From the sequence record PZ386972.1: 64,000 bases of DNA. One strand, given 5' to 3'. This DNA comes from a phage. This document shows positions 18,433 to 55,280 of the stretch, piece after piece. The stretch's first letter is position 1. Every line of letters starts with the position of its first letter. Under the pieces are notes generated by a model. The model saw only the letters and a list, made by a program, of their open reading frames with translations, was not told where the DNA came from and did not search any database. A program made the position numbers and the translations under genes.

Positions 18433-18615
18433 ATGCCAGTATCTAAAAATGTTCGTAAAAATGGTAAGAAAGCTACTCGTAATCTTGGTATCCGTCGTAT
18501 GGCTGAACGTCAATCAGGTATCCAGAAAATCTTTGATCTGCTAAATCGTGCTAATCCTAAAATTGATAACAGTAACGATACTGTTCTGCGCACTCTGCTG
18601 GCAATTGGTCTGTAA
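18433..18615 (+). CDS. small basic hypothetical protein
   Basis: ORF track, RBS AAGGAAA. Confidence 0.4.
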   Translation: MPVSKNVRKNGKKATRNLGIRRMAERQSGIQKIFDLLNRANPKIDNSNDTVLRTLLAIGL

Positions 18616-21239: not shown

Positions 21240-22029
21240 TAAATTAGGGAACAGCGAGCCGATTACGCTGAGTGCAGAATCCCAACCGGAGCGCATTGAA
21301 TAGAGTCGGTGGGTTAGTTGTAAAACTAGTACACAGGGGGCGGCAATCCCGGTTAGTGGCTAGAACGTGTAAAATGAGGCGTCTGAAACCTCTCCCCTAA
21401 ACTCTTCTCTGATTTATAAATAGTGGGGTGTGGAAATCACTTATGTAGTAACACTGCCGTCCTAGTATAATTGGTATTATCAAGCCGTAACTGGTGGAAG
21501 ATGTAGGTTCGAATCCTACGGTCGGTAAGAACTGGATAACTGATGCTTTTAACGTAAAAGCTTCCTAGGTTAGTTGCGCACTGCCTAAACCACGCGGTAG
21601 TTGGTTCCAGACTAACCAACCAGTCTGCTGAATAGTTTTATTACGATTTAACTATGTCCAGGCTAAAGAAGAACTTTAGAAGGTATTCTAGGATAGTGAA
21701 GTTCTTTCTCCATATCGGAGTAGTTTTTCAAGCTATCCACAAAGTGGGAAATGCTGACATGAGAGATGTCACTAATGGTGCACAATAGCACAGGTAATTC
21801 GCGATAACTCCTGTTGAGTAGCAGCAAAAGGTGGGAAGTCATGACCCCAAGCCTAACCGAGTCCTCAATATACCGCAGGACATAACCACTAAGTCACCCT
21901 GACTTAAACTGGAAAATAATAGACGTTACTGTATTTTGTCTTGAAATACTTAATGAGTGAGACTTATGACTCTCCCGGTATCGTCTGTATTTTTAAGAGT
22001 TTTTACGAGAGTTCTTAAAAATACTTAAA
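21240..22029 (+). ncRNA. about 790 nt structured non-coding transcript region (candidate stable RNAs)
   Basis: No ORF of 60 aa or more on plus strand; multiple hairpins such as AAGAACTT/AAGTTCTT and TTTTTAAGAGT/GAGTTCTTAAAAA; lies between promoter and first tRNA. Confidence 0.3.
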
Positions 22030-23817: not shown

Positions 23818-23892
23818 GGTTCTCAAGCTCATATGGTATGAGCACCCGGCTCATAACCGGAAGGTACGTAGGTTCGAATCCTCGGGGAGCCA
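23818..23892 (+). tRNA. tRNA with CAT anticodon (Met or Ile2)
   Basis: Acceptor GGTTCTC/GGGAGCC with wobbles, D-arm GCTC...GAGC, anticodon loop CTCATAA, TTCGAAT T-loop (imperfect T stem), CCA encoded. Confidence 0.6.
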
Positions 23893-27780: not shown

Positions 27781-28128
27781 ATGATTAATGCTAAAGAAGA
27801 GTTGTTACTTGCCCTAAAGAATACTAAGTCTGAAGTTAAGTGTATTAAGATAGAATTCGGTTATTATGGGAACAAAGAAGTTTGGATATTACCCGTAGGT
27901 TATACAGAAAAAGATATTGAAGATTTTCTAAATAATCTAGACTTCAAATATGATTCTGGTTTCGGTGGACAATTGCTTTACGGTAACGTATGGTTTACTG
28001 ATGGAACTTGGTTAGAGCGTGGTGAATATGATGGTTCTGAATGGTGGGAGTATAAGACTACACCAGCAATCCCAGAAGAATGCCGAACAATTAATGGTGA
28101 AGTAGATCGTACTTTACTATTAAATTAA
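27781..28128 (+). CDS. hypothetical protein
   Basis: ORF track. Confidence 0.45.
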   Translation: MINAKEELLLALKNTKSEVKCIKIEFGYYGNKEVWILPVGYTEKDIEDFLNNLDFKYDSGFGGQLLYGNVWFTDGTWLERGEYDGSEWWEYKTTPAIPEECRTINGEVDRTLLLN

Positions 28129-28250
28129 CAAAATTTCAGTGCAGAACACGGAGCTAGCAATTCGGAAGTGCTGACTCATGATAGGCTGCCTATGTACTTG
28201 CGAAGCGGTCGTGTCCAAGACTCGGACTCTTGCACTGAAAACAATCAAAC

Positions 28251-28368
28251 ATTCTAGCGTGGTTGATGGGGAAACCAGCTTGGCTAGGGCAGAAGCTCGT
28301 TCGATTCGAGTGAAAGAATGGTTCTCGTAAGTCCGCACAAGTGATAACAGGTTCGAGTCCTGTCTAGA
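28251..28368 (+). ncRNA. 118-nt tRNA-like RNA: perfect 7-bp acceptor-like stem and canonical T-arm, no encoded CCA
   Basis: 5' ATTCTAG pairs with 3' CTAGAAT; T-arm ACAGG-TTCGAGT-CCTGT; internal second TTCGATT hairpin. Confidence 0.35.
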
Positions 28369-28383
28369 ATGACACTATAAAGT

Positions 28384-28494
28384 TTACTTATTATGTAGGT
28401 TCCGATAGATCGGCGGGTCTATTCTGGCATTTAAGAGAGGTCTCGCAAACTTCTTTGTCAGCCGTGGGGTTGATAGCCTCCAGGTGGCCTACAC
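28384..28494 (+). ncRNA. about 110-nt structured RNA closed by terminal helix
   Basis: 5' TGTAGGT pairs with 3' GCCTACA; internal hairpins; no ORF. Confidence 0.3.
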
Positions 28495-28520
28495 AATAAG
28501 TAAATTTATTAAAAATTCAT

Positions 28521-28549
28521 TTGCTATTCTGCTTAATTATCTGTATAAT
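28521..28549 (+). promoter_or_regulatory. T5-type early promoter
   Basis: TTGCTA-17-TATAAT. Confidence 0.6.
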
Positions 28550-29104: not shown

Positions 29105-29268
29105 TAGCTCGACCTAGGACTGGCTGCCAAAAAGCACGATCCCTACGATTCGGGAGAAGTTCTAGATTAGTCCACTAGATTCAGCGGCAACTGAATAGTG
29201 TATCGGGTTTGCGAGATGACGCGGTTCCTTCCGCTCGAAGCGAAGGTGCTGTAGTTACGCCGAGCTAA
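29105..29268 (+). ncRNA. about 165-nt structured RNA closed by TAGCTCG/CGAGCTA helix
   Basis: Long-range complementary 7-mers plus internal hairpins; no ORF. Confidence 0.3.
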
Positions 29269-29668: not shown

Positions 29669-29760
29669 GGTAGGTCAATCCAATGGCTGGCGCTGGACTC
29701 CGACTTGAAATCGGTTGATCGTAGTGATACGGTGTAAGGGTTCGATCCCCTTACCTACCT
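29669..29760 (+). tRNA. tRNA-Ser (anticodon TGA), class II
   Basis: Acceptor GGTAGGT/ACCTACC, loop CTTGAAA, long variable arm, T-arm AAGGG-TTCGATC-CCCTT, CCA encoded. Confidence 0.7.
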
Positions 29761-30658: not shown

Positions 30659-30667
30659 TAGCATTCT

Positions 30668-30740
30668 TGGGATGTAGATCAATTGGCAGATCGTCGGCCT
30701 CTGACTCCGAAGGTTCCACGTTCGATCCGTGGCATCCCAG
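30668..30740 (+). tRNA. tRNA-Gln (anticodon CTG)
   Basis: Acceptor TGGGATG/CATCCCA, D-arm GATC...GATC, loop CTCTGAC, T-arm CCACG-TTCGATC-CGTGG, discriminator G, CCA encoded. Confidence 0.7.
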
Positions 30741-30749
30741 CCAAACAAT

Positions 30750-30822
30750 TGGAGAGTAGTGTAACGGTTAGCACAACGGCCTTTGACTCCGTTAATGGTA
30801 GGTTCGATTCCTCCTTCTCCAG
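30750..30822 (+). tRNA. tRNA-Gln (anticodon TTG)
   Basis: Acceptor TGGAGAG/TTCTCCA, loop CTTTGAC, TTCGATT T-loop, discriminator G, CCA encoded. Confidence 0.65.
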
Positions 30823-30833
30823 CCAAGTAATAA

Positions 30834-30906
30834 GCGGTTAAGCACACGGGTTGTGTCGCAGGCCTTCCAAGCCTCGCTGAGTAGGGTTCGATTCCCTCTA
30901 GCCGCT
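30834..30906 (+). tRNA. tRNA-Gly (anticodon TCC)
   Basis: Acceptor GCGGTTA/TAGCCGC, loop CTTCCAA, TTCGATT T-loop, CCA encoded. Confidence 0.6.
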
Positions 30907-30925
30907 CCAACTTTAAGGAAACATT

Positions 30926-31177
30926 ATGCACGTTTTTGAGTTTCGTAATAAAAGTACCGATAAACGAGTTATTGTTATTGGAGAAACATACCGAGCATAC
31001 GAACAAACTGACGGCTCTGTTATCCTAAACGATGAGAAAGGAGGTTTTAGCTTTTATCCAGAAGAACCTTATGAAGAGTTTCGAAAACAATTTAACCTAG
31101 ACTGGAGAAAGCATTTAAACACTGTTGCTTCATCTGTAGTATTGCCAACTACCAGTACTGTACTCTCTAATGGCTGA
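30926..31177 (+). CDS. hypothetical protein
   Basis: ORF track. Confidence 0.4.
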   Translation: MHVFEFRNKSTDKRVIVIGETYRAYEQTDGSVILNDEKGGFSFYPEEPYEEFRKQFNLDWRKHLNTVASSVVLPTTSTVLSNG

Positions 31178-31342
31178 TAACCTAAAAGTCAAGATCGATA
31201 AACAAAAGAAACGTGTAGAAGTAGAGATTGGTGAAGAACGTGTAGCCTTCACCTTTGAATTTCTACAACAAATGGCAATGGCGGTTATGACTGATAAGTC
31301 TCCTGTTATTGAAAAAGAAATCCCGTTGAAATAACGGGTTCT

Positions 31343-31426
31343 GCTGGGTTGGCAGAATGGTTGAATGCACCTGATTTGTAATCAGGAGGAGTAATCCCGT
31401 TGCAGGTTCGAATCCTGTGCCCAGCA
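31343..31426 (+). tRNA. tRNA with TGT anticodon (Thr) and long 15-nt variable arm
   Basis: Acceptor GCTGGGT/GCCCAGC, anticodon stem CCTGA/TCAGG, loop TTTGTAA, T-arm GCAGG-TTCGAAT-CCTGT, CCA encoded. Confidence 0.55.
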
Positions 31427-31611
31427 CCAACTTAAGGACTATTATGTTTAAATTATTAGTAGTTATCTGGTATAGTCAATCAAATAGAGCGAATACCTCC
31501 CACGTTATAGACTTTAATACTAAAAATGAAGCTGAAAAAGCATATTCTAATTTAATAGAACGTAATAAAGAATCTCGTAGTATAGTTTATGAAGTGACTA
31601 AACTTTATTAA
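31417..31611 (+). CDS. small hypothetical protein (track start overlaps tRNA 3' end; true start probably the internal ATG)
   Basis: ORF track. Confidence 0.3.
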   Translation: MPSTNLRTIMFKLLVVIWYSQSNRANTSHVIDFNTKNEAEKAYSNLIERNKESRSIVYEVTKLY

Positions 31612-31619
31612 AAATTCAT

Positions 31620-31648
31620 TTGCTTTCTCTCTTATTTATTGTTATAAT
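31620..31648 (+). promoter_or_regulatory. T5-type early promoter
   Basis: TTGCTT-17-TATAAT. Confidence 0.6.
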
Positions 31649-31678
31649 ATTTATATAAATTAATGAGAGGGAAGCCAA

Positions 31679-31972
31679 ATGAAACGTTATCTTTCTGTTG
31701 TGTTCCAAACTGGTGGTCAACGCTATACCTATGAATTTCCTGGCTCTTGGAAGATCAAAGAGGGTGATCAAGTAGTAGTGTTAACACCGCGTGAGGGTTT
31801 CAAGGTAGTAACGGTTAAGCAAGTATTTCCAAAAGAGCATGAACCAGCTAAAGGCATTCGCTATAAGATGATTCATGGTGTAGTTCGTCAAGTACCACGA
31901 GCGGAAGTCGAAATCAAAGTAGATAAAGATGGTAGACTTAAATATACCTCTTGCTTAGATGAGCTGCTATAA
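31679..31972 (+). CDS. hypothetical protein
   Basis: ORF track, GAGGGAAG RBS. Confidence 0.45.
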   Translation: MKRYLSVVFQTGGQRYTYEFPGSWKIKEGDQVVVLTPREGFKVVTVKQVFPKEHEPAKGIRYKMIHGVVRQVPRAEVEIKVDKDGRLKYTSCLDELL

Positions 31973-32178
31973 TGAGGATTACTTTCACAGAAAAGATCAT
32001 GAGTAATGGTGTTATGATCATTACTGCATGGGATGGCAATCAGTGGTGTAGTGTTTCAGGTATTAAGCCTGAAGAACAAACACTAGAAAATATCTCAAAG
32101 ATTAAGCGAAGAATGGCAGAACGTGCACGACTTCCAGGTGCACCTAGAAATGGCAAACGTTCTGCTGCAAAATGTTAA
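31972..32178 (+). CDS. hypothetical protein
   Basis: ORF track, ATGA start-stop overlap with upstream gene. Confidence 0.4.
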   Translation: MRITFTEKIMSNGVMIITAWDGNQWCSVSGIKPEEQTLENISKIKRRMAERARLPGAPRNGKRSAAKC

Positions 32179-32179
32179 T

Positions 32180-32253
32180 GCTTCGGTAGCTTAGCGATCT
32201 AAAGCACTCGGCTGATAACCGAGAGATCGGGGGTTTAAATCCCTCCCGGAGTA
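32180..32253 (+). tRNA. tRNA-Ile (anticodon GAT) with atypical TTTAAAT T-loop
   Basis: Acceptor GCTTCGG/CCGGAGT, anticodon stem CTCGG/CCGAG, loop CTGATAA, T-arm GGGGG-TTTAAAT-CCCTC, CCA encoded. Confidence 0.7.
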
Positions 32254-32352
32254 CCAAATTTAGGAATTAAGACTATGCGTCCAGGAAAGTTTAAAAAAGC
32301 TAATTGGTCTAAAGAGTATAAAGAATACTTACTTAGTCTAGTAAAACATAAC

Positions 32353-32425
32353 AGTTAGTTGGCAGAGTGGTTATGCACCTCCTTCATACGGAGCGACTAC
32401 AGTGGTTCAAATCCACTACTAACTA
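32353..32425 (+). tRNA. tRNA with CAT anticodon (Met or Ile2)
   Basis: Acceptor AGTTAGT/ACTAACT, loop TTCATAC, T-arm AGTGG-TTCAAAT-CCACT, CCA encoded. Confidence 0.65.
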
Positions 32426-32465
32426 CCATTAAAAGAGCTAGAGATAGCTAAATTTAGGAGCAGCT

Positions 32466-32660
32466 ATGTTAACAATTAAAATAATGTCAGCCAAGAATGG
32501 TGAACATATCCATACAGGCAAAAGTGTGAGCTTTAATCCTAGAAATAAAAGATTGGCTATAGTTGGAGTAGACCAAGCCATCTTTTTAAAAGAAGATGAA
32601 GTAGCATATGTCATGAACCAAACTGGTAAGACAGTTTCCGTATACTATGGAAAAGTATAA
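32466..32660 (+). CDS. hypothetical protein
   Basis: ORF track. Confidence 0.4.
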   Translation: MLTIKIMSAKNGEHIHTGKSVSFNPRNKRLAIVGVDQAIFLKEDEVAYVMNQTGKTVSVYYGKV

Positions 32661-32702
32661 AGAATAAATAGCTGAGCCAAATTCTAACATCTGGGAGATC
32701 TA

Positions 32703-33071
32703 ATGAAAGCATATCAAAATCTTAAATCTGGCGTAATTAACCTTGTTCATGAAAATCAGATTATTCAGCTATACTCCGACAACGGTGAACTTAAACAGAA
32801 AGTTCTAGTTGAAGATCTAGAAGGTATCACACCACAATTCGATCCCGAAGCCTTCCGTGAAGTCAAAGTGGAAGTCGCCCCTCAAATCGAAGGTGGTCAG
32901 CACCTAAATGTCAATGTGTTAAGCCGTGATCAGCTTTTGGATGCGCAGAAACATCCTGAAAAATATCCTCAGTTGACCATCCGTGTCTCTGGCTACGCTG
33001 TTCGATTTAACGCACTGACTCGTGAACAACAGAACGACGTTATTAGTCGTACATTTACTCAGGCGATGTAA
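32703..33071 (+). CDS. autonomous glycyl-radical cofactor protein (GrcA/YfiD-like)
   Basis: C-terminal [27 protein letters not shown] matches the glycyl-radical domain signature of PFL/GrcA. Confidence 0.6.
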
Positions 33072-33152
33072 TGGGGTTTGGGTACGATTTCTCCGAACTA
33101 CGTGAGGTAGTCGAGCAAACTCCATTTATCTCCCAAGTTTTAGGAGAAATGT

Positions 33153-33467
33153 GTGGATCGAGCATTAAGACGCCATCACCGGCAACGTGTGAAGAACAAC
33201 CGCAGGAAGTATTGGACAGTCTTCCCACATGAAGAAAGCCCTAAGCGGTTAGGTATTATCACTACTACTCCTTGCATCTGTTCTTGTTGGATGTGTGGGA
33301 ACCCTCGCAAATACTATAAGAATAGTAAAGCAGGCATGAAAATTTCGGAGATTAGAAAAATGGAAGCAATGATTATGGGCATCTCAAATGATGAATTTGA
33401 TGGCTTTGTAGGATTCGGAGAAGGAATCAGCTCAAGCTGTTTCGAAGATGAACGCCCCGATCTGTGA
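33153..33467 (+). CDS. hypothetical Arg-rich/Cys-rich protein (alternative overlapping small ORFs exist in the other two frames)
   Basis: ORF track (GTG start); see findings for the overlapping coupled ORFs. Confidence 0.3.
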   Translation: MDRALRRHHRQRVKNNRRKYWTVFPHEESPKRLGIITTTPCICSCWMCGNPRKYYKNSKAGMKISEIRKMEAMIMGISNDEFDGFVGFGEGISSSCFEDERPDL

Positions 33468-33476
33468 TTAATAACA

Positions 33477-33512
33477 AACCCCAGCTATTGAATAAGTAGT
33501 CTGGGGTTTTTC
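33477..33512 (+). terminator. rho-independent terminator
   Basis: AAACCCCAG...CTGGGGTTTTT hairpin. Confidence 0.65.
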
Positions 33513-33588
33513 TGTATATAGGTAAATAATTTATGTATAACAAAATTCATCCACATTAGGTTAATTTAAAAGACTTAATGGAGGTAAT

Positions 33589-33936
33589 ATGAGCCGTACT
33601 TATCGTAAACAATCTGGTGATCAGTGGTGGAAGTCTAAAGAACAATTCTCTCAAGAATATTCTTTCTTCAAAGAAAATGGCTACTGGATTCGTGTTATTT
33701 ATGCTAAATCCTGGGATGATATAAGACAGGAAATGAAGGAAGCAACCATTCGTAATGAGAAAAAGGATGGTTATAACTGGAATTCTATTAGTAAGAATGT
33801 TAAGTGGCATTCTAATAAAATGGTTCGTCAAGGGAATCGTCAAGAACTCCACCGCGTGATGAAAGATCCAGAAAATTACGACTATAATCGCGATCATGAC
33901 ATGCGTAAGCGTGGATTATGGTGGTGCTATGACTAA
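33589..33936 (+). CDS. hypothetical protein
   Basis: ORF track, GGAGG RBS. Confidence 0.45.
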   Translation: MSRTYRKQSGDQWWKSKEQFSQEYSFFKENGYWIRVIYAKSWDDIRQEMKEATIRNEKKDGYNWNSISKNVKWHSNKMVRQGNRQELHRVMKDPENYDYNRDHDMRKRGLWWCYD

Positions 33937-33953
33937 ATTCTGAAATAATTCAT

Positions 33954-33982
33954 TTGCTAAACCTCTCTTTTCTTGATATAAT
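33954..33982 (+). promoter_or_regulatory. T5-type early promoter
   Basis: TTGCTA-17-TATAAT. Confidence 0.6.
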
Positions 33983-34012
33983 ATATTTATAAATTGATGA
34001 GAGAGGTTTGAA

Positions 34013-34294
34013 ATGAAAAATCGCCTAGACTGTGCTGTTCATGTTCTTGAACATGATGTTGTGGGAACCTGTATGTCTTACCATGAAGCAGGTCGTTTAA
34101 TTAAAGAACGTGTGGCAGATGTGTGCGGGTTGAAGATTACTGCTGAGGAAGCTGATGATCTCTTAGGTCAAGCACTGGAGAAAACCGAAATGTTCCTCTG
34201 CGATTCTTGTTCTTGGTGGTGTGAAGCTCACGAACGTTCTTTCAACGATTATGATGTATGTCGTGATTGTAGCGGGGAGGATGAAGATGAATAA
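34013..34294 (+). CDS. Cys-rich hypothetical protein
   Basis: ORF track. Confidence 0.45.
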   Translation: MKNRLDCAVHVLEHDVVGTCMSYHEAGRLIKERVADVCGLKITAEEADDLLGQALEKTEMFLCDSCSWWCEAHERSFNDYDVCRDCSGEDEDE

Positions 34295-34586
34295 GTTTAT
34301 TATTGCACTGATGATCTCCGCAGTTAGTTTCGGTTCTCTGGCATCTACCAAAGTTTCTATGAAAAATGGTAATGTTAAAGTCCAACAGAACGGCATTATT
34401 ACTGAATATGGTAAAGTTCGTGATGTTAAGGAACGTAATGGTAAAGTAGAAATATATACTAATAAAAACTTCTCTACTCCAGCCGTTACTATTAGCAAAC
34501 GCGGTGAAATAACCACTCAACGTACTAATAGCTCTAGTTCTTTTACTTGTCGTTATGATTGCGACTTTGAAGGTGAAGATGAATAA
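34287..34586 (+). CDS. secreted small protein with signal peptide
   Basis: MNKFIIALMISAVSFGSLAST signal sequence; ATG 34287 with GGAGG RBS preferred over track start 34221. Confidence 0.45.
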   Translation: MNKFIIALMISAVSFGSLASTKVSMKNGNVKVQQNGIITEYGKVRDVKERNGKVEIYTNKNFSTPAVTISKRGEITTQRTNSSSSFTCRYDCDFEGEDE

Positions 34587-34998
34587 TTTAGACCCTAGAA
34601 TTAAATTTGCAATTACAGAAATCCAAGATCAAATTGATGAGGACTTCACTGTTTGGTCAAGGTCTGGTAATGGAGAATATTGCCAGCTTTATAGCATGAA
34701 AATGGGTATCTCAATTGAGCTTAATATCAACTCTGAAGGTAGAGTAGAAGCCCAACCCATGTTCAGTGTTCCAGGCTTCTCTGGATTTGTTTCAGGTATA
34801 AAATTGTGTCTACCAAATAACCATCTTCATCGAGTTATTTGTCAGCTAGAGACTATCAAGCATTTCTTGCCAGAAGATAACATTAATGACTACTACCACG
34901 AAGTTATAGCAGCTCATATGATGAAAGAATGTAAACGTCGGAGAGAAGAACGTGAAAAGGCTAAACATCAACAGCACGGTGCAGATTCCAGCAACTAA
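34555..34998 (+). CDS. hypothetical protein
   Basis: ORF track. Confidence 0.45.
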   Translation: MIATLKVKMNNLDPRIKFAITEIQDQIDEDFTVWSRSGNGEYCQLYSMKMGISIELNINSEGRVEAQPMFSVPGFSGFVSGIKLCLPNNHLHRVICQLETIKHFLPEDNINDYYHEVIAAHMMKECKRRREEREKAKHQQHGADSSN

Positions 34999-35248
34999 GG
35001 ATATTTTAACATTCCTACGTAGTGAGAATACCCAGTTTTGGCATGACTATATTCAGGAAAATAAAAATAATCCAGATATAGTTGCTTTTGCCAAGAAACG
35101 TATTGGGGAGTATAAAGATCCAGAGATTAAAGATGGGATGATTACTATGCAGTTATGGATAGCTATGAAAACCTTTGGACCCACTATGAGTCTAGGATTT
35201 ACTCCACTGTTTACTGATATTCTAATTAATGAAAAGGATCTGAAATGA
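34952..35248 (+). CDS. hypothetical protein
   Basis: ORF track. Confidence 0.4.
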   Translation: MKRLNINSTVQIPATKDILTFLRSENTQFWHDYIQENKNNPDIVAFAKKRIGEYKDPEIKDGMITMQLWIAMKTFGPTMSLGFTPLFTDILINEKDLK

Positions 35249-35529
35249 TTATCTCTCCCTTTGCTCTTTGGTTCGTCATCGGGTCTGTGGTTGCTATTTA
35301 CAGCTTGATTGATGATCTATATATTTCTAAGAATAAAGATGTAATATTATACGTTATACATAAAACCCGACCATTAGACCTACCACCTCTTGATGATAAA
35401 ACATTACTCAGGTGTGCTAGATCTATGATATTTATTATGGATATTCTTTTAGGGCCAGCATCTGTACTTTTCTTTTATAGAAAAACTCGTAATATGAAAA
35501 AGTTTAAAGCTGAAATGCGGAATATTTAA
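35245..35529 (+). CDS. small membrane protein
   Basis: ORF track; hydrophobic N-terminal helix. Confidence 0.4.
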   Translation: MIISPFALWFVIGSVVAIYSLIDDLYISKNKDVILYVIHKTRPLDLPPLDDKTLLRCARSMIFIMDILLGPASVLFFYRKTRNMKKFKAEMRNI

Positions 35530-35603
35530 AGAACTCGCGTAGGACCGAGTTGCGTCACCTGCAACTGTTACGGATAAGGGAGTCGTGCCCCTTAGTGCGG
35601 TAA

Positions 35604-35984
35604 GTGGTGAGGTGGCTGCTAGCCATAACTGGAGATGATATGACTATATTACTAATTCTTGTTACAACTTGGTTTTTAATTGGTGCTGGATATGCGATAG
35701 CTATTATTAGACATTTGGACGAATATTCTGCTGAATGGTTTGTTAAGTATCTACGTATTGATGATCAGGAACATGAATTTAAGGATGAAAAGCAGAAAAA
35801 GGCAGTAGAGAAAATGACAGGCAAAGAATGTTTATTCTACATGCGTATTGTAGGATTCTTTGGGTTATTAATTGCTGGCCCAATTGGTTCTACTATTGCT
35901 CCGTACAAAGAAACAGTTGCTGACATCAAATTATGGAGAAATGCAGGGGTACTACGCAAAGCTAGAGAAACTAATATCACATAA
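35604..35984 (+). CDS. membrane protein (2-3 TM helices)
   Basis: ORF track; hydrophobic segments. Confidence 0.4.
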   Translation: MVRWLLAITGDDMTILLILVTTWFLIGAGYAIAIIRHLDEYSAEWFVKYLRIDDQEHEFKDEKQKKAVEKMTGKECLFYMRIVGFFGLLIAGPIGSTIAPYKETVADIKLWRNAGVLRKARETNIT

Positions 35985-36028
35985 GATTGACACTAAGTCA
36001 ACTTACTAGCAAAAGCAAATAATGACAA

Positions 36029-36064
36029 AGCCCAGCCTGCACTTTTGCGACTGGGCTATTTTTG
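36029..36064 (+). terminator. rho-independent terminator
   Basis: AAGCCCAG...CTGGGCT hairpin then ATTTTTG. Confidence 0.6.
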
Positions 36065-36078
36065 TAATAAAATTTTAG

Positions 36079-36107
36079 TTGCATAGATGCCCGAACTTTT
36101 GTATAAT
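36079..36107 (+). promoter_or_regulatory. T5-type early promoter
   Basis: TTGCAT-17-TATAAT. Confidence 0.55.
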
Positions 36108-36138
36108 ATATTCATAGATTGAGGCAAGAGGATTAAAT

Positions 36139-36837
36139 ATGAGGATTATTTCTAAATTCGCAGATGTATATGATTTGCAGAACAGTTTGTTTGATCCCGA
36201 TCGTGTTTGGGAGCGTAAAACTGAAGAGTTACTGGTTAAAGTAACTGATGATGCAGAAAAGAACATCGTGCATAGTCGCCAGGTATTTCGTGAAGATTCA
36301 CTATCTTTCCGTGGAGACTTCGAATACTTTGTAAATCCATTGTTCGTTGCAGGTGAAGTTTACTGGTTACACGAGCTGTACTGCTGGCATCCAGAGTTTA
36401 GCTTCAAAACGTTCGACCTCGACACTATGTTCGATAAAATGGAAGAGATGGGATTGCATGCTCGCTCTTACTTAATGGATAAGAGTCGTGGAGATGTTCG
36501 TGAAACAATGCGTGATTTGCTCGTTGAAGCAAAACCTAAAGCAGAACGTATCTTGTCCGAACTGCGTGTACCGATTGCATATGTGAAAGGTATCAAGAAG
36601 AACGATAACGATGATGTTCGTAACTTCGTGATTCAGACTAACATTCGTTTCCATCAGTCAGGTATTCCGTGGCAGGAAATTGAAAGTAACTTATACCGTT
36701 TACACCAAGTTCTCGAACAGTATATCTTCGGTGTACTAGGAACTGGTGAGCCTGATATGATTAAAGTATCAGATAAAGATAGGTTAGCAGCGCATGGATT
36801 TGATACAAAAACTTCTTTCAGGAATATGGCATGGTAA
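36139..36837 (+). CDS. hypothetical protein
   Basis: ORF track. Confidence 0.5.
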   Translation: MRIISKFADVYDLQNSLFDPDRVWERKTEELLVKVTDDAEKNIVHSRQVFREDSLSFRGDFEYFVNPLFVAGEVYWLHELYCWHPEFSFKTFDLDTMFDKMEEMGLHARSYLMDKSRGDVRETMRDLLVEAKPKAERILSELRVPIAYVKGIKKNDNDDVRNFVIQTNIRFHQSGIPWQEIESNLYRLHQVLEQYIFGVLGTGEPDMIKVSDKDRLAAHGFDTKTSFRNMAW

Positions 36838-37243
36838 GTGGTATATCCTGGGAGCAGGTCTAGCGATAGGCATCGGATTCGGTGCTTATCACTTAGTAGA
36901 TAAAGTGGAGACTTTAGCGGGAGATCTTGCAGTAGCTACTAAAAAGATCTCTTCTCTAGAGACTTCCCTTAATAAGGTGAAAGCTGAAAGCGAACTTCGT
37001 GAGACTAGAATGAATCAGTATTTCACGATGAATAATATTTCTCAAGCAGATCTAGACAAAAAGATTAAGCAGCTAGATAAAGCTCTTAGTCGTCAAGATG
37101 TTATCGCTGCAAAACCTGGATTGGTAACATTAATTGCTAAAAAGCAGAATAAAGAGTTCGAGGAAAGATTAGCGTGTTTAACTGGAAACTTGGAGTACTG
37201 CTCGCAGCCACAATCACAATCACAGGCTGTGCAGAAGAAATAA
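36794..37243 (+). CDS. i-spanin-like protein (N-terminal TM helix plus periplasmic coiled coil)
   Basis: TM segment WYILGAGLAIGIGFGAY followed by heptad-rich region; 3' end overlapped by lipoprotein gene in another frame. Confidence 0.4.
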   Translation: MDLIQKLLSGIWHGKWYILGAGLAIGIGFGAYHLVDKVETLAGDLAVATKKISSLETSLNKVKAESELRETRMNQYFTMNNISQADLDKKIKQLDKALSRQDVIAAKPGLVTLIAKKQNKEFEERLACLTGNLEYCSQPQSQSQAVQKK

Positions 37244-37527
37244 AACCAGAGCCATCTCATGAGTTAAAGCAAGCTCATGTAGATTGGCCTAAAGGACTTC
37301 AACCTTGTAGCTTTGACTTTAAATTTGAAAAGAAATTAGCTACAAATGGGGAAGATGGCGTAGTAGTTGTTATACCATACAAAGATTGGAATGCAAAAGC
37401 AAAATGTGAGGAAGCAGTTTACTCTTACATTTCACGACTGACTGGTATGGTCTGCTTTTATCGTCAAGATTTACAAGAAAAACGTTGCTTAGTTTACTAT
37501 CCACCAATTAACAATAGGAAAGATTAA
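37174..37527 (+). CDS. outer-membrane lipoprotein (o-spanin-like), start embedded in the previous gene
   Basis: Signal peptide with lipobox LLAATITITGC; embedded/overlapping arrangement typical of Rz/Rz1 pairs. Confidence 0.4.
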   Translation: MFNWKLGVLLAATITITGCAEEIKPEPSHELKQAHVDWPKGLQPCSFDFKFEKKLATNGEDGVVVVIPYKDWNAKAKCEEAVYSYISRLTGMVCFYRQDLQEKRCLVYYPPINNRKD

Positions 37528-38279
37528 TGTCAGTATTAGTCGGTTTACATGGTGAAGCTGGTTCGGGAAAAGATACCGTTGCAAAATTAATTATCGATTG
37601 GTGTAATGACACGTATCCAACGTGTTTATCTCGTCGTTATAGTTTTGCTAAGCCCGTTTATGAACTTGCATCCGTAATCCTCGGTGTAACTCCAGAGTTT
37701 CTAGGAGAGCGCAGGGGGAAAGAGATTGACCAATGGTTTACGGTCACACAATCTCAGTTGGAACGAGCCAGGGATGTGTGGTTTAAGTACGGTATCGATA
37801 AGTTTGAAGACTTCTCGTACGTTTGGCCTATTTTTGAGGAAAAATATCTTAATCCTCAACAACTTATCTCAGAGAATAAAGAAGACGGACTTTATAGTTT
37901 ATTTATTTCTCCGAGAAAAATGTTACAGCTCGTAGGGACAGAGCTAGGAAGGCAGCTGGTGCATGAACGCATTTGGCTCATAATTCTGGAGCAATCCATC
38001 GCTAAAGACGACCCAGACGTCGCCGTAATAACAGATGTTAGATTCCCCAATGAAGGAGAGCTACTCAGAGAAACAAACCATTTAGATATGGATTCTTTGA
38101 TAGTAAATGTAGTACCCGCTGAGCAGAAGTTTACTATTAAATCAGATCATCCATCTGAAAGTGGTATTCCTGCAAAATATATTACCCACGAATTAGTTAA
38201 TAAATTCGATGGTATCAATAACCTTAAACTAGAAGTTTATAACTTCTGTGACTTAGAGCTAGAACCACTAGTTGAATAA
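37527..38279 (+). CDS. deoxynucleoside monophosphate kinase
   Basis: 250 aa; P-loop GLHGEAGSGKDT at N-terminus; T5-type dNMP kinase size and position. Confidence 0.6.
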   Translation: MSVLVGLHGEAGSGKDTVAKLIIDWCNDTYPTCLSRRYSFAKPVYELASVILGVTPEFLGERRGKEIDQWFTVTQSQLERARDVWFKYGIDKFEDFSYVWPIFEEKYLNPQQLISENKEDGLYSLFISPRKMLQLVGTELGRQLVHERIWLIILEQSIAKDDPDVAVITDVRFPNEGELLRETNHLDMDSLIVNVVPAEQKFTIKSDHPSESGIPAKYITHELVNKFDGINNLKLEVYNFCDLELEPLVE

Positions 38280-38291
38280 TCAAGGATCGCT

Positions 38292-38891
38292 ATGACTAAT
38301 AAAAAAGAAGAAAAGACTAACCTGTTTCACTCCATTCGCCAATCTAATGAGTATACCTTTTTCTTTGATGAAGAATTAGGCCCGCCGGATGAATACCGTG
38401 ATTTATCAATGGTACTTATGCAGGCAAATGAGGACGACGAAATTAATCTGATGATTAATGGCCCGGGTGGTTATGTTGATACTGCTGCACAGTTATCTAA
38501 CTTAATTGCTAATTGCCGTGGAACAGTTATAGGACATCTGGTTGGTCCTAGTGCTTCTGCTTACTGCACAATTTTCCTATCCTGTCATGGATGGGTGGTA
38601 CATCCACATGCTACGCTAATGGGACACACGTTCTCTGGCGGATTCTGTGAGAAAGGTCAAGAAATCAAGAAAGCCTATGAATCTTACAACAAGTTCGTAG
38701 AAGATATGATGCTAGATGTCTACTATCCGTTCTTCTCAATAGATGAAATCGACGAGATGGTAAAAGACAACAAAAATATCTATCTAGATAGCAAGGAAAT
38801 CCATAAGCGTATTGAAATCTTGGCAAAATATCGATCTGAGCAATATAATAAAGCCCATTTACCTAAATCCGAGAAGCACAACGAAGAGTAA
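38292..38891 (+). CDS. ClpP-like serine peptidase
   Basis: MINGPGGYVDTAAQL resembles the ClpP INSPGG motif; GPSASAY and MGHTFSGG around candidate Ser/His. Confidence 0.5.
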   Translation: MTNKKEEKTNLFHSIRQSNEYTFFFDEELGPPDEYRDLSMVLMQANEDDEINLMINGPGGYVDTAAQLSNLIANCRGTVIGHLVGPSASAYCTIFLSCHGWVVHPHATLMGHTFSGGFCEKGQEIKKAYESYNKFVEDMMLDVYYPFFSIDEIDEMVKDNKNIYLDSKEIHKRIEILAKYRSEQYNKAHLPKSEKHNEE

Positions 38892-54830: not shown

Positions 54831-55280
54831 ATTTCATTTTTGCTTTTGGGGATAAGTTATCAACAAGGCTAGAATGCGCCTAAAACGCCCTAGAATGCGA
54901 TGAAAGTTTTAGTCATGCCATTGCATTGCCTACCCTCGTTTATCGCTACCACGAGCTTTTTAGGTTTTGTCAAGTAGGGCAAAGCAAATATAAATGAAAA
55001 AATTACTTGCCTATCTGCTATGTTTTGTGGTATTCGCGCGCCCGTTTCTTTTAATTTTAGTGCGCCGCGCCCAGGTCGCCGCACGCCGTCCGGTGGATCG
55101 TGTCTTTACATTTCTTTACAAAATTAAGGTTGCGCCCTTTTCGGGAATCCCCTATTATTTATCACGTAGGGCGGCAATGACGAACTACACGGCGGGAAGT
55201 TTACCGCCGCGCTCTTTAAAAATTGGGTACATCTTAAAGCCTATCGGCGGTAAACTTATACATTATAAGGAATCGACGAT

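What the first reader, a model, noticed from the sequence alone, without database searches (positions are those of the whole stretch)
28384..28494. Second structured RNA candidate closed by a 7-bp terminal helix
TGTAGGT at the 5' end pairs with GCCTACA at the 3' end around about 100 nt containing GC-rich hairpins, directly upstream of a promoter. Together with the preceding tRNA-like element it forms a 370-nt ORF-free stretch.
Basis: seen in the sequence. Interest (0 to 1): 0.4.

Follow-up and report, generated by a model that had tools for sequence, protein, structure and literature searches.

The report
Phage T5 stable RNA IV gene
The flagged stretch is the gene for "RNA IV", a small stable non-coding RNA of T5-like phages that GenBank already annotates with unknown function; comparison across phages shows it folds into a conserved cloverleaf on a long stem.

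Summary
TGTAGGT (28394-28400) pairs with GCCTACA (28487-28493), just upstream of a strong promoter (TTGCTA-17-TATAAT, 28521-28549). The window is a T5-like phage (Demerecviridae), and the element lies in its tRNA cluster. It aligns without gaps to the GenBank feature rnaIV, "stable RNA with unknown functions", of T5 and BF23, which corresponds to window 28393-28495. The gene is therefore already known.

The structure is strongly supported. The 7-bp helix is the inner part of a roughly 24-bp closing stem (28380-28403 / 28483-28507). That stem carries three arms: P2, P3a/P3 and P4. Across 36 distinct sequences, 97% of pair cells are paired, against 38-53% in slid controls. Compensatory double changes occur at 31 of 48 pairs, against about 7 in shuffles.

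My covariance model found diverged homologues in Pectobacterium phages DU_PP_V and My1. Their stems are rewritten, but two loops stay invariant: cGGCGg and CUCGCA.

No Rfam family matches, including tRNA, and phage T4's rnaC and rnaD do not match the model.

Likely mechanism (inferred): the RNA is cut out of early tRNA-operon transcripts within its long stem, possibly by RNase III. It then acts through the invariant loops on an unknown partner. It is dispensable in the laboratory.

The parts
28393..28495 (+). Mature RNA IV, 103 nt, as annotated in T5 (T5s05, NC_005859 32838-32940) and BF23 (AJ604530 5371-5473), transferred to the window by a gap-free alignment.
   Evidence: Identity to T5 is 97% over 138 nt.
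28380..28392 (+). P1 outer extension, 5' arm (AAGUUUACUUAUU). It pairs with 28495-28507 and lies outside the annotated mature 5' end.
   Evidence: Inverted repeat I1. Cells are 92-100% paired. DU_PP_V keeps pairing through U.G wobbles, and My1 shows C-G to U-A and U-A to C-G changes.
28393..28393 (+). A28393 opposite C28494: the internal mismatch in P1, sitting exactly at the annotated 5' and 3' ends. In other clades the mismatch moves by one pair or closes (G-C or A-U).
   Evidence: Columns 15/116 and 16/115. The variants are listed.
28394..28403 (+).
   Evidence: G-C becomes A-U at column 20/111 in the 1-29 clade.
28404..28423 (+). P2 hairpin: 8 bp (GAUAGAUC / GGUCUAUU) with an invariant GGCG loop at 28412-28415.
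   Evidence: 99.3-99.6% paired. Six of 8 pairs show double changes. The stem sequence is entirely different in DU_PP_V (AACUUUAC / GUAAGGUU) while the loop is the same.
28424..28428 (+). P3a 5' strand (CUGGC), pairing with 28457-28461 (GUCAG). This helix carries the P3 hairpin.
   Evidence: 100% paired on the MAFFT alignment. The 1-29 clade has CUAGU / GCUAG.
28435..28455 (+). P3 hairpin: 7 bp with a 7-nt loop CUCGCAA at 28442-28448, which has the layout of an anticodon loop (Y-U-NNN-R-N). The loop is invariant in the T5-like set and in My1; DU_PP_V has CUCGCAC.
   Evidence: All 7 pairs show double changes somewhere in the set. The loop columns are invariant. CUCGCA is retained in DU_PP_V and My1.
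28457..28461 (+). P3a 3' strand (GUCAG).
28466..28480 (+). P4 hairpin: 4 bp (GGGG / CCUC) with a 7-nt loop UUGAUAG. The stem sequence differs between clades (GCGG/CCGU, GCG/CGU, UGAG/CUCG).
   Evidence: All 4 pairs show double changes on the model-guided alignments. RNAalifold did not predict P4 on the MAFFT alignment, which is misaligned in this region.
28483..28493 (+).
28495..28507 (+). P1 outer extension, 3' arm (AAUAAGUAAAUUU). Apart from its first base (A28495, the annotated 3' terminal nucleotide) it lies outside the annotated mature 3' end and overlaps the A/T-rich region upstream of the -35 box of P13a.
   Evidence: It is deleted in Salmonella phage vaffelhjerte while the core is intact.
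28521..28549 (+). Context: early promoter P13a (TTGCTA-17-TATAAT), which drives tRNA-Pro and tRNA-fMet. It is not part of the RNA.
   Evidence: Annotated in T5 and BF23.
28251..28375 (+). Context: the preceding tRNA-like element, which is T5/BF23 rna2 (tRNA-like stable RNA, unknown function).

Best explanation
The element is the gene for RNA IV, a stable non-coding RNA of T5-like phages (identity about 0.97; shown). It is transcribed on the + strand within the early tRNA cluster, as the last gene before promoter P13a. The transcript folds into a four-way junction (structure about 0.95; shown by covariation). A long closing stem P1 carries a short hairpin P2 with a GGCG loop, a long arm P3a/P3 ending in an anticodon-loop-like heptaloop CUCGCAA, and a small hairpin P4. 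The ends annotated in T5 and BF23 lie opposite each other inside P1, at its conserved mismatch. The conserved outer 13 bp of P1 are therefore absent from the mature RNA. This is the layout of a processing stem. I infer that the 103-nt RNA is cut out of the polycistronic tRNA transcript by a staggered double-strand cut. RNase III is the most likely enzyme (about 0.45); the alternative is RNase P or RNase E cleavage followed by 3' exonuclease trimming. The two loops (cGGCGg and CUCGCA) stay unchanged between phage subfamilies whose stems have been completely rewritten. I therefore infer that the released RNA acts in trans through these loops on a specific partner, either a protein or RNA ligand or each other through a GCG:CGC kissing contact (about 0.35). 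On this reading it is more than a spacer. It is an accessory function and is not needed for growth on laboratory hosts.
For: Identity: gap-free alignment to BF23 rnaIV and T5 rnaIV, with the same neighbours rna2, P13a and tRNA-Pro. Strand: nine G.U pairs exist only on the + strand; the model scores 150 bits on + and 29 on -; fold z-scores are -2.0 and -5.5 on +, -0.66 on -. Structure: on a MAFFT alignment made without any structure, 97.0% of cells are paired against 38-52% when slid, with 10 pairs changed on both sides. RNAalifold independently returns P1, P2, P3a and P3. With DU_PP_V and My1 added, 97.2% are paired and 31 of 48 pairs have double changes, against 7.1+-1.8 in shuffles (0 of 500 reach it) and at most 10 when slid. 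The DU_PP_V and My1 sequences fold on their own with significant stability: DU_PP_V's minimum-energy fold reproduces the whole architecture (z=-4.25); My1's (z=-4.55) reproduces only P1 and P2. Processing stem: the annotated ends map to alignment columns 15 and 117, at the P1 mismatch. The outer helix is kept by wobble and compensatory changes in DU_PP_V and My1. Loops: the GGCG and CUCGCA columns are invariant. Dispensable: the block is absent from DT57C and from most Klebsiella T5-like phages. T5Mos, which lacks an 8-kb tRNA-region fragment, is viable (PMC11464382). From my own knowledge, not tested here: RNase III takes part in T4 tRNA-operon processing and cleaves T4 species 1 RNA in vitro (McClain 1979, which appears in the reference list seen; Paddock et al. 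1976).
Against: The mature ends come from database annotation; I could not read the primary RNA-sequencing papers. As annotated, the ends give a 1-nt 3' overhang, not the 2 nt typical of RNase III. In My1 the outermost 6 nt of the 3' arm belong to the acceptor stem of the next tRNA-Lys. There, RNase P at that tRNA would set the 3' boundary and the outer helix may not form. Phage vaffelhjerte lacks the 3' outer arm but keeps the core. No partner of the loops is known. The loops never vary, so the kissing idea cannot be tested by covariation. Most of the double changes trace to three lineages (the 1-29 clade, DU_PP_V and My1), so they represent few independent events. Alignments A4 and A6 were fitted to the model.
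Confidence: 0.55

Rival explanations
1. It is a cis-acting punctuation or stability module only. The structured block at the end of the transcription unit serves as a processing site and a barrier to 3'-exonucleases for the upstream tRNA and tRNA-like genes. The stable 103-nt RNA is a by-product with no function of its own.
For: It is the last gene before promoter P13a, and no intrinsic terminator occurs on the + strand between 27000 and 29500. It has a long closing stem. It is dispensable. T4 likewise has stable RNAs rnaC and rnaD at the distal end of its tRNA operon.
Against: A barrier or processing site would not need a four-way junction kept by covariation in every arm. It would also not need two loop sequences to stay invariant across subfamilies whose stems are rewritten. 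The position next to a promoter is not conserved: in DU_PP_V an ORF region follows, and in My1 and Eos a tRNA follows directly.
Confidence: 0.27
2. It is a base-pairing regulatory small RNA that uses the exposed CUCGCAA loop as a seed against a phage or host transcript.
For: The heptaloop is invariant. A 10-nt complement, GTTTGCGAGA, lies at 29207-29216 in the neighbouring RNA2H homologue on the same strand.
Against: That complement occurs at chance frequency (13 matches against 11.2 expected) and partly requires opening P3. The RNA has no terminator-type 3' end or U-tail typical of Hfq-dependent small RNAs. No target shows covariation.
Confidence: 0.08
3. It is a degenerate tRNA gene (pseudo-tRNA) that keeps a cloverleaf outline by descent and is otherwise functionless.
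For: It lies in a tRNA cluster. It has a 7-bp inner helix, three arms, two 7-nt loops and a 4-nt linker before P4. Its neighbours rna2 and rna3 are annotated as tRNA-like.
Against: ARAGORN and the Rfam tRNA model give no match, even at E<=10 on the isolated element. The arm lengths are wrong for a tRNA: an 8-bp 'D arm' with a 4-nt loop, a 5+7-bp 'anticodon arm', and a T-arm position separated from the closing helix. The pervasive compensatory changes show ongoing selection on this particular fold.
Confidence: 0.04
4. It is a DNA-level element: an inverted-repeat-bounded mobile element, a recombination or protein-binding palindrome, or part of the upstream element of promoter P13a.
For: A 20-nt inverted repeat flanks the core. 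The 3' arm overlaps the A/T-rich region upstream of the -35 box. The tRNA region is mosaic: BF23 has an extra tRNA-Gly block ending exactly at the 5' arm.
Against: Pairing is maintained through G.U and U.G states that would be A.C mismatches in DNA or on the other strand. The element is single-copy in the window. None was found in 185,579 bacterial and archaeal genomes. The internal arms covary as well. DU_PP_V and My1 keep the stem without a promoter downstream.
Confidence: 0.02
5. It is a non-canonical transcription terminator or insulator ahead of P13a.
For: The position directly upstream of a strong promoter, and a stable stem followed by AAAUUUAUU.
Against: The consensus scan finds no terminator-like site on the + strand. 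The base of the stem is AU-rich rather than GC-rich. A simple hairpin would suffice. The arrangement is not conserved outside Markadamsvirinae.
Confidence: 0.04

Closest known systems
rnaIV (RNA IV) of Escherichia phages T5 (NC_005859, T5s05) and BF23 (AJ604530), annotated 'stable RNA with unknown functions'
   Same: It is the same gene. The identity is 97% with no gaps. The neighbours are the same (rna2 upstream; P13a and tRNA-Pro downstream), and so are strand and length.
   Different: Nothing essential differs. The window has a few substitutions, for example G.U instead of A-U at one P3 pair. Like T5, it lacks BF23's tRNA-Gly insertion upstream.
Phage T4 rnaC and rnaD (species 1 and species 2 RNAs)
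   Same: They are small stable RNAs of unknown function, co-transcribed with phage tRNAs and placed at the distal end of the tRNA operon. By my recollection, species 1 is an RNase III substrate.
   Different: They are not homologous. Model R1 with filters off gives no match over rnaC or rnaD. rnaC carries a canonical tRNA T-arm, which RNA IV lacks.
tRNA and the tRNA-like RNAs rna2 and rna3 of T5 and BF23
   Same: Location in the cluster, a cloverleaf-like four-way junction, a 7-bp inner closing helix, and a 7-nt loop with the Y-U-NNN-R-N layout of an anticodon loop.
   Different: No match to the tRNA model or to ARAGORN. There is no GTTCRA T-loop and no CCA end. The arm lengths are non-canonical, and the closing stem is extended to about 24 bp.
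RNase III processing stems (16S and 23S rRNA precursors; phage T7 R1.1-type signals)
   Same: A conserved long helix formed by sequences flanking the mature RNA, with the mature ends facing each other inside it. An internal mismatch sits at the cut site, with about 11-13 bp on each side.
   Different: Cleavage by RNase III has not been shown. The annotated ends give a 1-nt rather than a 2-nt 3' overhang. The stem encloses a small cloverleaf rather than an rRNA or an mRNA junction.
Bacterial Y-RNA-like RNAs (YrlA)
   Same: A long stem formed by the 5' and 3' ends, carrying a compact multi-helix tRNA-like head. Size is about 100-130 nt.
   Different: No Rfam Y-RNA or YrlA match, even at E<=10. 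No Ro/Rsr gene was sought in the window. The resemblance is one of outline only.

Membership tests
T5/BF23 rnaIV stable RNA (GenBank-annotated gene) | Sequence homology over the full length of the annotated RNA | tested here: met
   Gap-free alignment to BF23. Identity to T5 NC_005859 rnaIV is 97.1% over 138 nt.
T5/BF23 rnaIV stable RNA (GenBank-annotated gene) | Synteny: same strand as the tRNAs, downstream of rna2 (or of tRNA-Gly), upstream of promoter P13a and tRNA-Pro/tRNA-fMet | tested here: met
T5/BF23 rnaIV stable RNA (GenBank-annotated gene) | Accumulates as a discrete stable RNA of about 103 nt in infected cells | not testable with these tools
   Only the database note 'stable RNA' is available. 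The primary papers are not held in the library.
tRNA (Rfam RF00005 / ARAGORN) | Match to the tRNA covariance model or cloverleaf detector | tested here: not met
   ARAGORN lists no gene here. There is no RF00005 hit at E<=1 in the region or at E<=10 on the isolated 146 nt.
tRNA (Rfam RF00005 / ARAGORN) | Canonical arm dimensions and a T-loop adjoining the acceptor stem | tested here: not met
   P2 is 8 bp with a 4-nt loop. P3a plus P3 is 5+7 bp. P4 is separated from the inner 7-bp helix by 6 nt (28481-28486), four of which (28483, 28484, 28486) extend P1; only CA (28481-28482) is unpaired at the junction. There is no GTTCRA motif.
Any curated Rfam 15 family | Score at or near a family's gathering threshold | tested here: not met
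   The best matches are MIR6135 (16.8 bits, threshold 99) and cow-rumen-2 (14.6 bits, threshold 66), both at E>1.
RNase III processing stem | Double-stranded RNA of about two helical turns formed by the flanks of the mature RNA | tested here: met
   P1 is 13 bp, a mismatch, then about 10 bp. It is conserved and covarying.
RNase III processing stem | Staggered cut leaving a 2-nt 3' overhang | tested here: inconclusive
   The annotated ends (columns 15 and 117) give a 1-nt overhang. The precision of the annotation is unknown.
RNase III processing stem | Maturation depends on host rnc | not testable with these tools
   This requires RNA end-mapping in rnc mutant hosts.
T4 rnaC / rnaD | Sequence and structure homology | tested here: not met
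   Model R1 with filters off on the T4 tRNA region gives no hit overlapping rnaC or rnaD at E<=10.
Intrinsic terminator | GC-rich hairpin directly followed by a U-tract | tested here: not met
   No + strand site between 27000 and 29500.
Inverted-repeat mobile element (MITE-like) | Multiple copies, with terminal inverted repeats conserved as DNA | tested here: not met
   Single copy in the window. Pairing is kept through G.U states that are specific to one RNA strand.

The most novel reading that the evidence does not exclude
RNA IV is the founding member of an uncurated family of phage cloverleaf RNAs that are released from tRNA operons by a processing stem. Its invariant anticodon-loop-like heptaloop (CUCGCAA), together with the GGCG loop, would make it a molecular mimic or decoy. 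It might titrate a host tRNA-directed enzyme or a tRNA-cleaving defence nuclease, so that it belongs to the counter-defence role recently shown for T5's own tRNAs.
Probability: 0.15. Interest if true: 0.7.

Novelty: already known. Interest (0 to 1): 0.3.

Why it matters
The gene is not new. It is annotated in the T5 and BF23 reference records, and by my recollection it goes back to the stable-RNA gel species of the 1970s and 1980s. Its function has stayed unknown since then, and it has no Rfam family.

- A secondary structure supported by covariation.
- Evidence that the conserved outer stem lies outside the annotated mature ends, which suggests a processing signal.
- Two loop sequences that survive complete rewriting of the stems between phage subfamilies.
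- A distribution: about 92% of Salmonella and Escherichia T5-like genomes have it, as do Pectobacterium phages My1 and DU_PP_V. It is absent from DT57C, Sugarland and Proteus phage PL1.

These points turn "stable RNA, function unknown" into testable predictions: end-mapping in an rnc host, loop mutants, and pull-downs. T5 tRNAs are now known to neutralise tRNA-targeting defences (PARIS, retron Eco7), so the non-tRNA RNAs of the same cluster are reasonable candidates for related roles.

Tried and rejected
- **Rfam.** I scanned 21-34 kb at E<=1 and the isolated element at E<=10. Nothing relevant matched, tRNA included.
- **Single-sequence fold of the 3' half.** The minimum-energy fold pairs GGC with GCC and UGUCAGCC with GGUUGAUA. 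It is paired in only 83% of cells and broken in the divergent clades, so I rejected it in favour of P3a plus P4. An earlier attempt used a mis-registered structure string and is void.
- **Pattern scans.** The 14-mer AAAGTTTACTTATT in viral contigs returned mostly chance hits. Gapped patterns in viral, metagenome and genome collections also returned many chance matches. After screening with nhmmer and the covariance model, only T5-like sequences remained, and none came from bacterial or archaeal genomes.
- **Paralogues in the window.** None. The other stable-RNA genes of the cluster do not match model R1.
- **Homology to T4 rnaC and rnaD.** None.
- **Klebsiella phage Sugarland, Proteus phage PL1 and E. 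coli phage DT57C.** No hit at E<=10 with default filters.
- **Trans-pairing with the RNA2H homologue.** The 10-nt complement at 29207-29216 is at chance frequency.
- **Literature.** Six full-text searches found no open-access paper describing RNA IV itself. Glukhov et al. 2018 on T5 tRNA-region deletions is not held.
- **Arms as a dispersed repeat.** The arm sequence is not enriched in the window.

Full report
**1. What the window is**

ARAGORN finds 22 tRNA genes on the + strand between 22.0 and 32.4 kb, and Rfam confirms them and adds a few more. Megablast of 28100-28600 hits 421 phage records, nearly all T5-like phages of Salmonella and Escherichia. The best is Salmonella phage L6jm at 99.2%. 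The finding therefore lies inside the early tRNA gene cluster of a Demerecviridae phage.

**2. The observation**

TGTAGGT is at 28394-28400 and GCCTACA at 28487-28493. That repeat is 28380-28399 / 28488-28507, 20 nt, 90% complementary.

The 111-nt stretch folds with z=-2.0 on the + strand and z=-0.66 on the - strand. The 129-nt element that includes the whole repeat gives -48.7 kcal/mol and z=-5.48. A consensus promoter, TTGCTA-17-TATAAT, lies at 28521-28549, and no + strand terminator is found nearby. No ORF of 30 aa or more overlaps the element.

**3. Identity**

BF23 record AJ604530 annotates a misc_RNA named rnaIV, "stable RNA with unknown functions". It is followed by "promoter P13a" and tRNA-Pro, and preceded by rna2, "tRNA-like RNA with unknown functions". 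The T5 reference genome carries the same features: rnaIV is T5s05 at 32838-32940, and rna2 is T5s06.

The window aligns to BF23 without a single gap across the element. This places RNA IV at window 28393-28495 and rna2 at 28251-28375. BF23 additionally has tRNA-Gly(GCC) plus about 147 nt between rna2 and rnaIV; the window, like T5, lacks this. No Rfam family covers it, even at E<=10 on the isolated sequence, and neither the tRNA model nor ARAGORN recognises it.

**4. Structure from comparison**

I collected 26 distinct sequences from GenBank phages and IMG/VR and aligned them with MAFFT, giving alignment A3.

Reading the substitutions suggested this model, in window coordinates:

| Element | 5' strand | 3' strand | Notes |
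|---|---|---|---|
| P1 outer | 28380-28392 | 28495-28507 | AU-rich extension |
| Mismatch | A28393 | C28494 | at the annotated ends |
| P1 inner | 28394-28403 | 28483-28493 | U28485 bulged |
| P2 | 28404-28411 | 28416-28423 | loop GGCG |
| P3a | 28424-28428 | 28457-28461 | carries P3 |
| P3 | 28435-28441 | 28449-28455 | loop CUCGCAA |
| P4 | 28466-28469 | 28477-28480 | loop UUGAUAG |

On A3, which was made without reference to any structure, 97.0% of pair cells are standard pairs. When the 3' partners are slid by 1-3 columns the figure is 38-52%. Ten pairs carry changes on both sides, against 5.4+-1.3 in shuffles. RNAalifold independently returns P1, P2, P3a and P3. The single-sequence minimum-energy fold of the 3' half fails in the divergent clades, with 83% paired, and I rejected it.

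Nine G.U pairs, and changes such as U.G to C-G or U-A, fit only a + strand RNA.

**5. Distant homologues**

I built covariance model R1 from A3. It finds the element once in the window on the + strand at 150 bits, against 29 bits on the - strand, and finds no paralogue.

It also finds a diverged copy in Pectobacterium phage DU_PP_V, subfamily Mccorquodalevirinae, at 44 bits and E about 1e-8. A third copy is in Pectobacterium phage My1 at 47 bits and E about 2e-10. Both lie in the tRNA clusters and on the tRNA strand.

Both fold on their own with significant stability. DU_PP_V's minimum-energy fold reproduces the long stem and the three arms (z=-4.25). My1's minimum-energy fold (z=-4.55) reproduces the long stem and P2; its P3 and P4 rest on the covariance-model alignment. 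Their stems are almost entirely rewritten; for example, P2 is AACUUUAC/GUAAGGUU in DU_PP_V against GAUAGAUC/GGUCUAUU here. The P2 loop with its closing pair (cGGCGg) and the CUCGCA of the P3 loop are unchanged.

With these added (alignment A6, 36 distinct sequences), 97.2% of cells are paired. Double changes occur at 31 of 48 pairs, against 7.1+-1.8 in shuffles (0 of 500 reach the observed value) and at most 10 in slid controls. Every pair of P3 and P4 covaries.

Two caveats apply. A6 is fitted to the model. Most double changes derive from three lineages, so they are few independent events.

**6. Distribution**

| Search | Result |
|---|---|
| blastn, phage collection | RNA IV in 407 records |
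| blastn, conserved A1 gene | 536 T5-like records |
| Salmonella + Escherichia phages | about 92% carry RNA IV |
| Klebsiella phages | 3 of 81 carry it |
| R1 on Sugarland, Proteus PL1, DT57C | no hit |
| Metagenome scan | 9 further copies, all close T5-like variants |
| 185,579 bacterial and archaeal genomes | none |

In DT57C the whole block (rna2, rnaIV, P13a) is missing, and the T5.067 homologue is followed directly by tRNA-Pro. A viable T5 variant, T5Mos, lacks an 8-kb fragment of the tRNA region (PMC11464382). If the paper's coordinates (30661-38625) are those of NC_005859, the deletion includes rnaIV. The RNA is therefore an accessory function.

**7. How it is probably made (inferred)**

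The annotated ends map to alignment columns 15 and 117. They face each other inside P1, at the single mismatch that interrupts the helix. About 13 bp lie below the mismatch and about 10 bp above it. In other clades the mismatch shifts by one pair or closes (columns 15/116 and 16/115).

The outer 13 bp are conserved. In DU_PP_V they are kept through U.G wobbles, and in My1 through C-G to U-A and U-A to C-G exchanges. Yet they are absent from the mature RNA. A conserved helix formed by the flanks of a mature RNA is the signature of a processing stem. The classical enzyme for such stems is RNase III.

From memory, RNase III takes part in T4 tRNA-operon processing and cleaves T4 species 1 RNA. McClain 1979 appears in the reference list seen.

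Several points count against this. The annotated 3' overhang is 1 nt, not 2. In My1 the outermost 6 nt of the 3' arm are the start of the next tRNA-Lys. Phage vaffelhjerte lacks the 3' outer arm. RNase P or RNase E cleavage followed by exonuclease trimming to the duplex is the alternative.

**8. What it probably does (inferred)**

A mere barrier or processing site would not need a four-way junction preserved arm by arm. It would also not need two loops frozen while the stems turn over. That pattern points to specific recognition of the loops.

Two features of the loops stand out. CUCGCAA has the layout of an anticodon loop: pyrimidine, U, three bases, purine, N. GGCG and CUCGCAA also contain complementary GCG and CGC, so an intramolecular kissing contact is possible. 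Neither idea can be tested by covariation, because the loops never vary.

I therefore favour a trans-acting structured ligand or mimic (about 0.35) over a purely cis-acting module (about 0.27). Base-pairing small RNA, terminator, tRNA relic and DNA element follow well behind.

**9. Comparison with known systems**

- The element is a member of the annotated rnaIV gene family of T5 and BF23. Homology and synteny were tested and met.
- It is not a tRNA. The model match and the arm dimensions were tested and not met.
- It is not related to T4 rnaC or rnaD. R1 with filters off gives no hit. Those are its closest functional analogues: stable RNAs of unknown role at the end of a phage tRNA operon.
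- Its outline recalls bacterial Y-like RNAs (a long stem with a compact head), but no such Rfam model matches.

**10. Verdict**

The thing itself is already known and annotated, so novelty is "already known" and interest is modest at 0.3. The new material is the covariation-supported fold, the processing-stem reading, the invariant loops, and the extension to Pectobacterium phages. None of it is curated in Rfam, and together it makes the unknown function of RNA IV testable.

Noticed in passing
window 28134-28240 (+): A third structured element in the same ORF-free stretch: 107 nt closed by a perfect 10-bp helix (TTTCAGTGCA / TGCACTGAAA). It lies between ORF 27781-28128 and rna2 and is identical in BF23, but it is not annotated in the T5 or BF23 records. 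Its single-sequence fold gives only z=-1.28.
   Followed up: partly
window 28251-28375 (+): The homologue of T5/BF23 rna2. It folds as a cloverleaf with a 7-bp acceptor stem, a canonical T-arm (CAGGTTCGAGTCCTG) and a very long 'anticodon' arm. Both ARAGORN and the Rfam tRNA model miss it.
   Followed up: partly
L001 (BF23) 1977-2002; also Epseptimavirus loci L005-L010 and L155 (DU_PP_V) about 18542-18565: Upstream of RNA IV, many phages have a hairpin TAAGTAAAC-GAAA-GTTTACTTA. Its 3' half is the 5' arm of P1, so the hairpin and the outer P1 helix are mutually exclusive. The upstream and downstream partners are direct repeats of TAAGTAAA. The hairpin is absent from the window and from T5.
   Followed up: partly
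window 29207-29216 (+), inside the RNA2H homologue: GTTTGCGAGA is a perfect 10-nt complement of the RNA IV P3 apex (28441-28450), on the same transcribed strand and in another annotated stable RNA. The count of such matches is at chance level.
   Followed up: partly
window 21456-21527, 23818-23892, 29669-29759, 30833-30906 (+): Rfam tRNA or tRNA-Sec-model hits (31-40 bits) that ARAGORN did not call. They are probably additional tRNA or tRNA-like genes of the cluster; for example, the DT57C record annotates a tRNA-Ile(CAU) directly after its tRNA-Ser(GCU), the position that corresponds to 23818-23892 here.
   Followed up: no
L333 (Pectobacterium phage My1) 19552-19675 (-): The My1 homologue of RNA IV overlaps the 5' end of the next tRNA-Lys gene by 6 nt, and tRNA-Gly lies about 210 nt upstream. 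This echoes the tRNA-Gly then RNA IV order of BF23 and Epseptimavirus.
   Followed up: partly
L153 (Escherichia phage DT57C) 1645-2076: DT57C lacks the whole block of unannotated element, rna2, rnaIV and promoter P13a. The T5.067 homologue is followed directly by tRNA-Pro, giving a natural presence/absence polymorphism.
   Followed up: no
window 55197-55258 (-): A hairpin TAAGTTTACCGCCG...CGGCGGTAAACTT reuses the AAGTTTAC / GTAAACTT arm motif and a CGGCGG stem. It was a weak model hit (13 bits, E about 1) and is probably an unrelated terminator-like hairpin.
   Followed up: no
L001 (BF23) 1856-1976: The BF23-specific spacer between tRNA-Gly and RNA IV folds stably (z=-2.84 for 1856-2002), including a helix CUACC...GGUAG. 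It may hold yet another small structured RNA.
   Followed up: no
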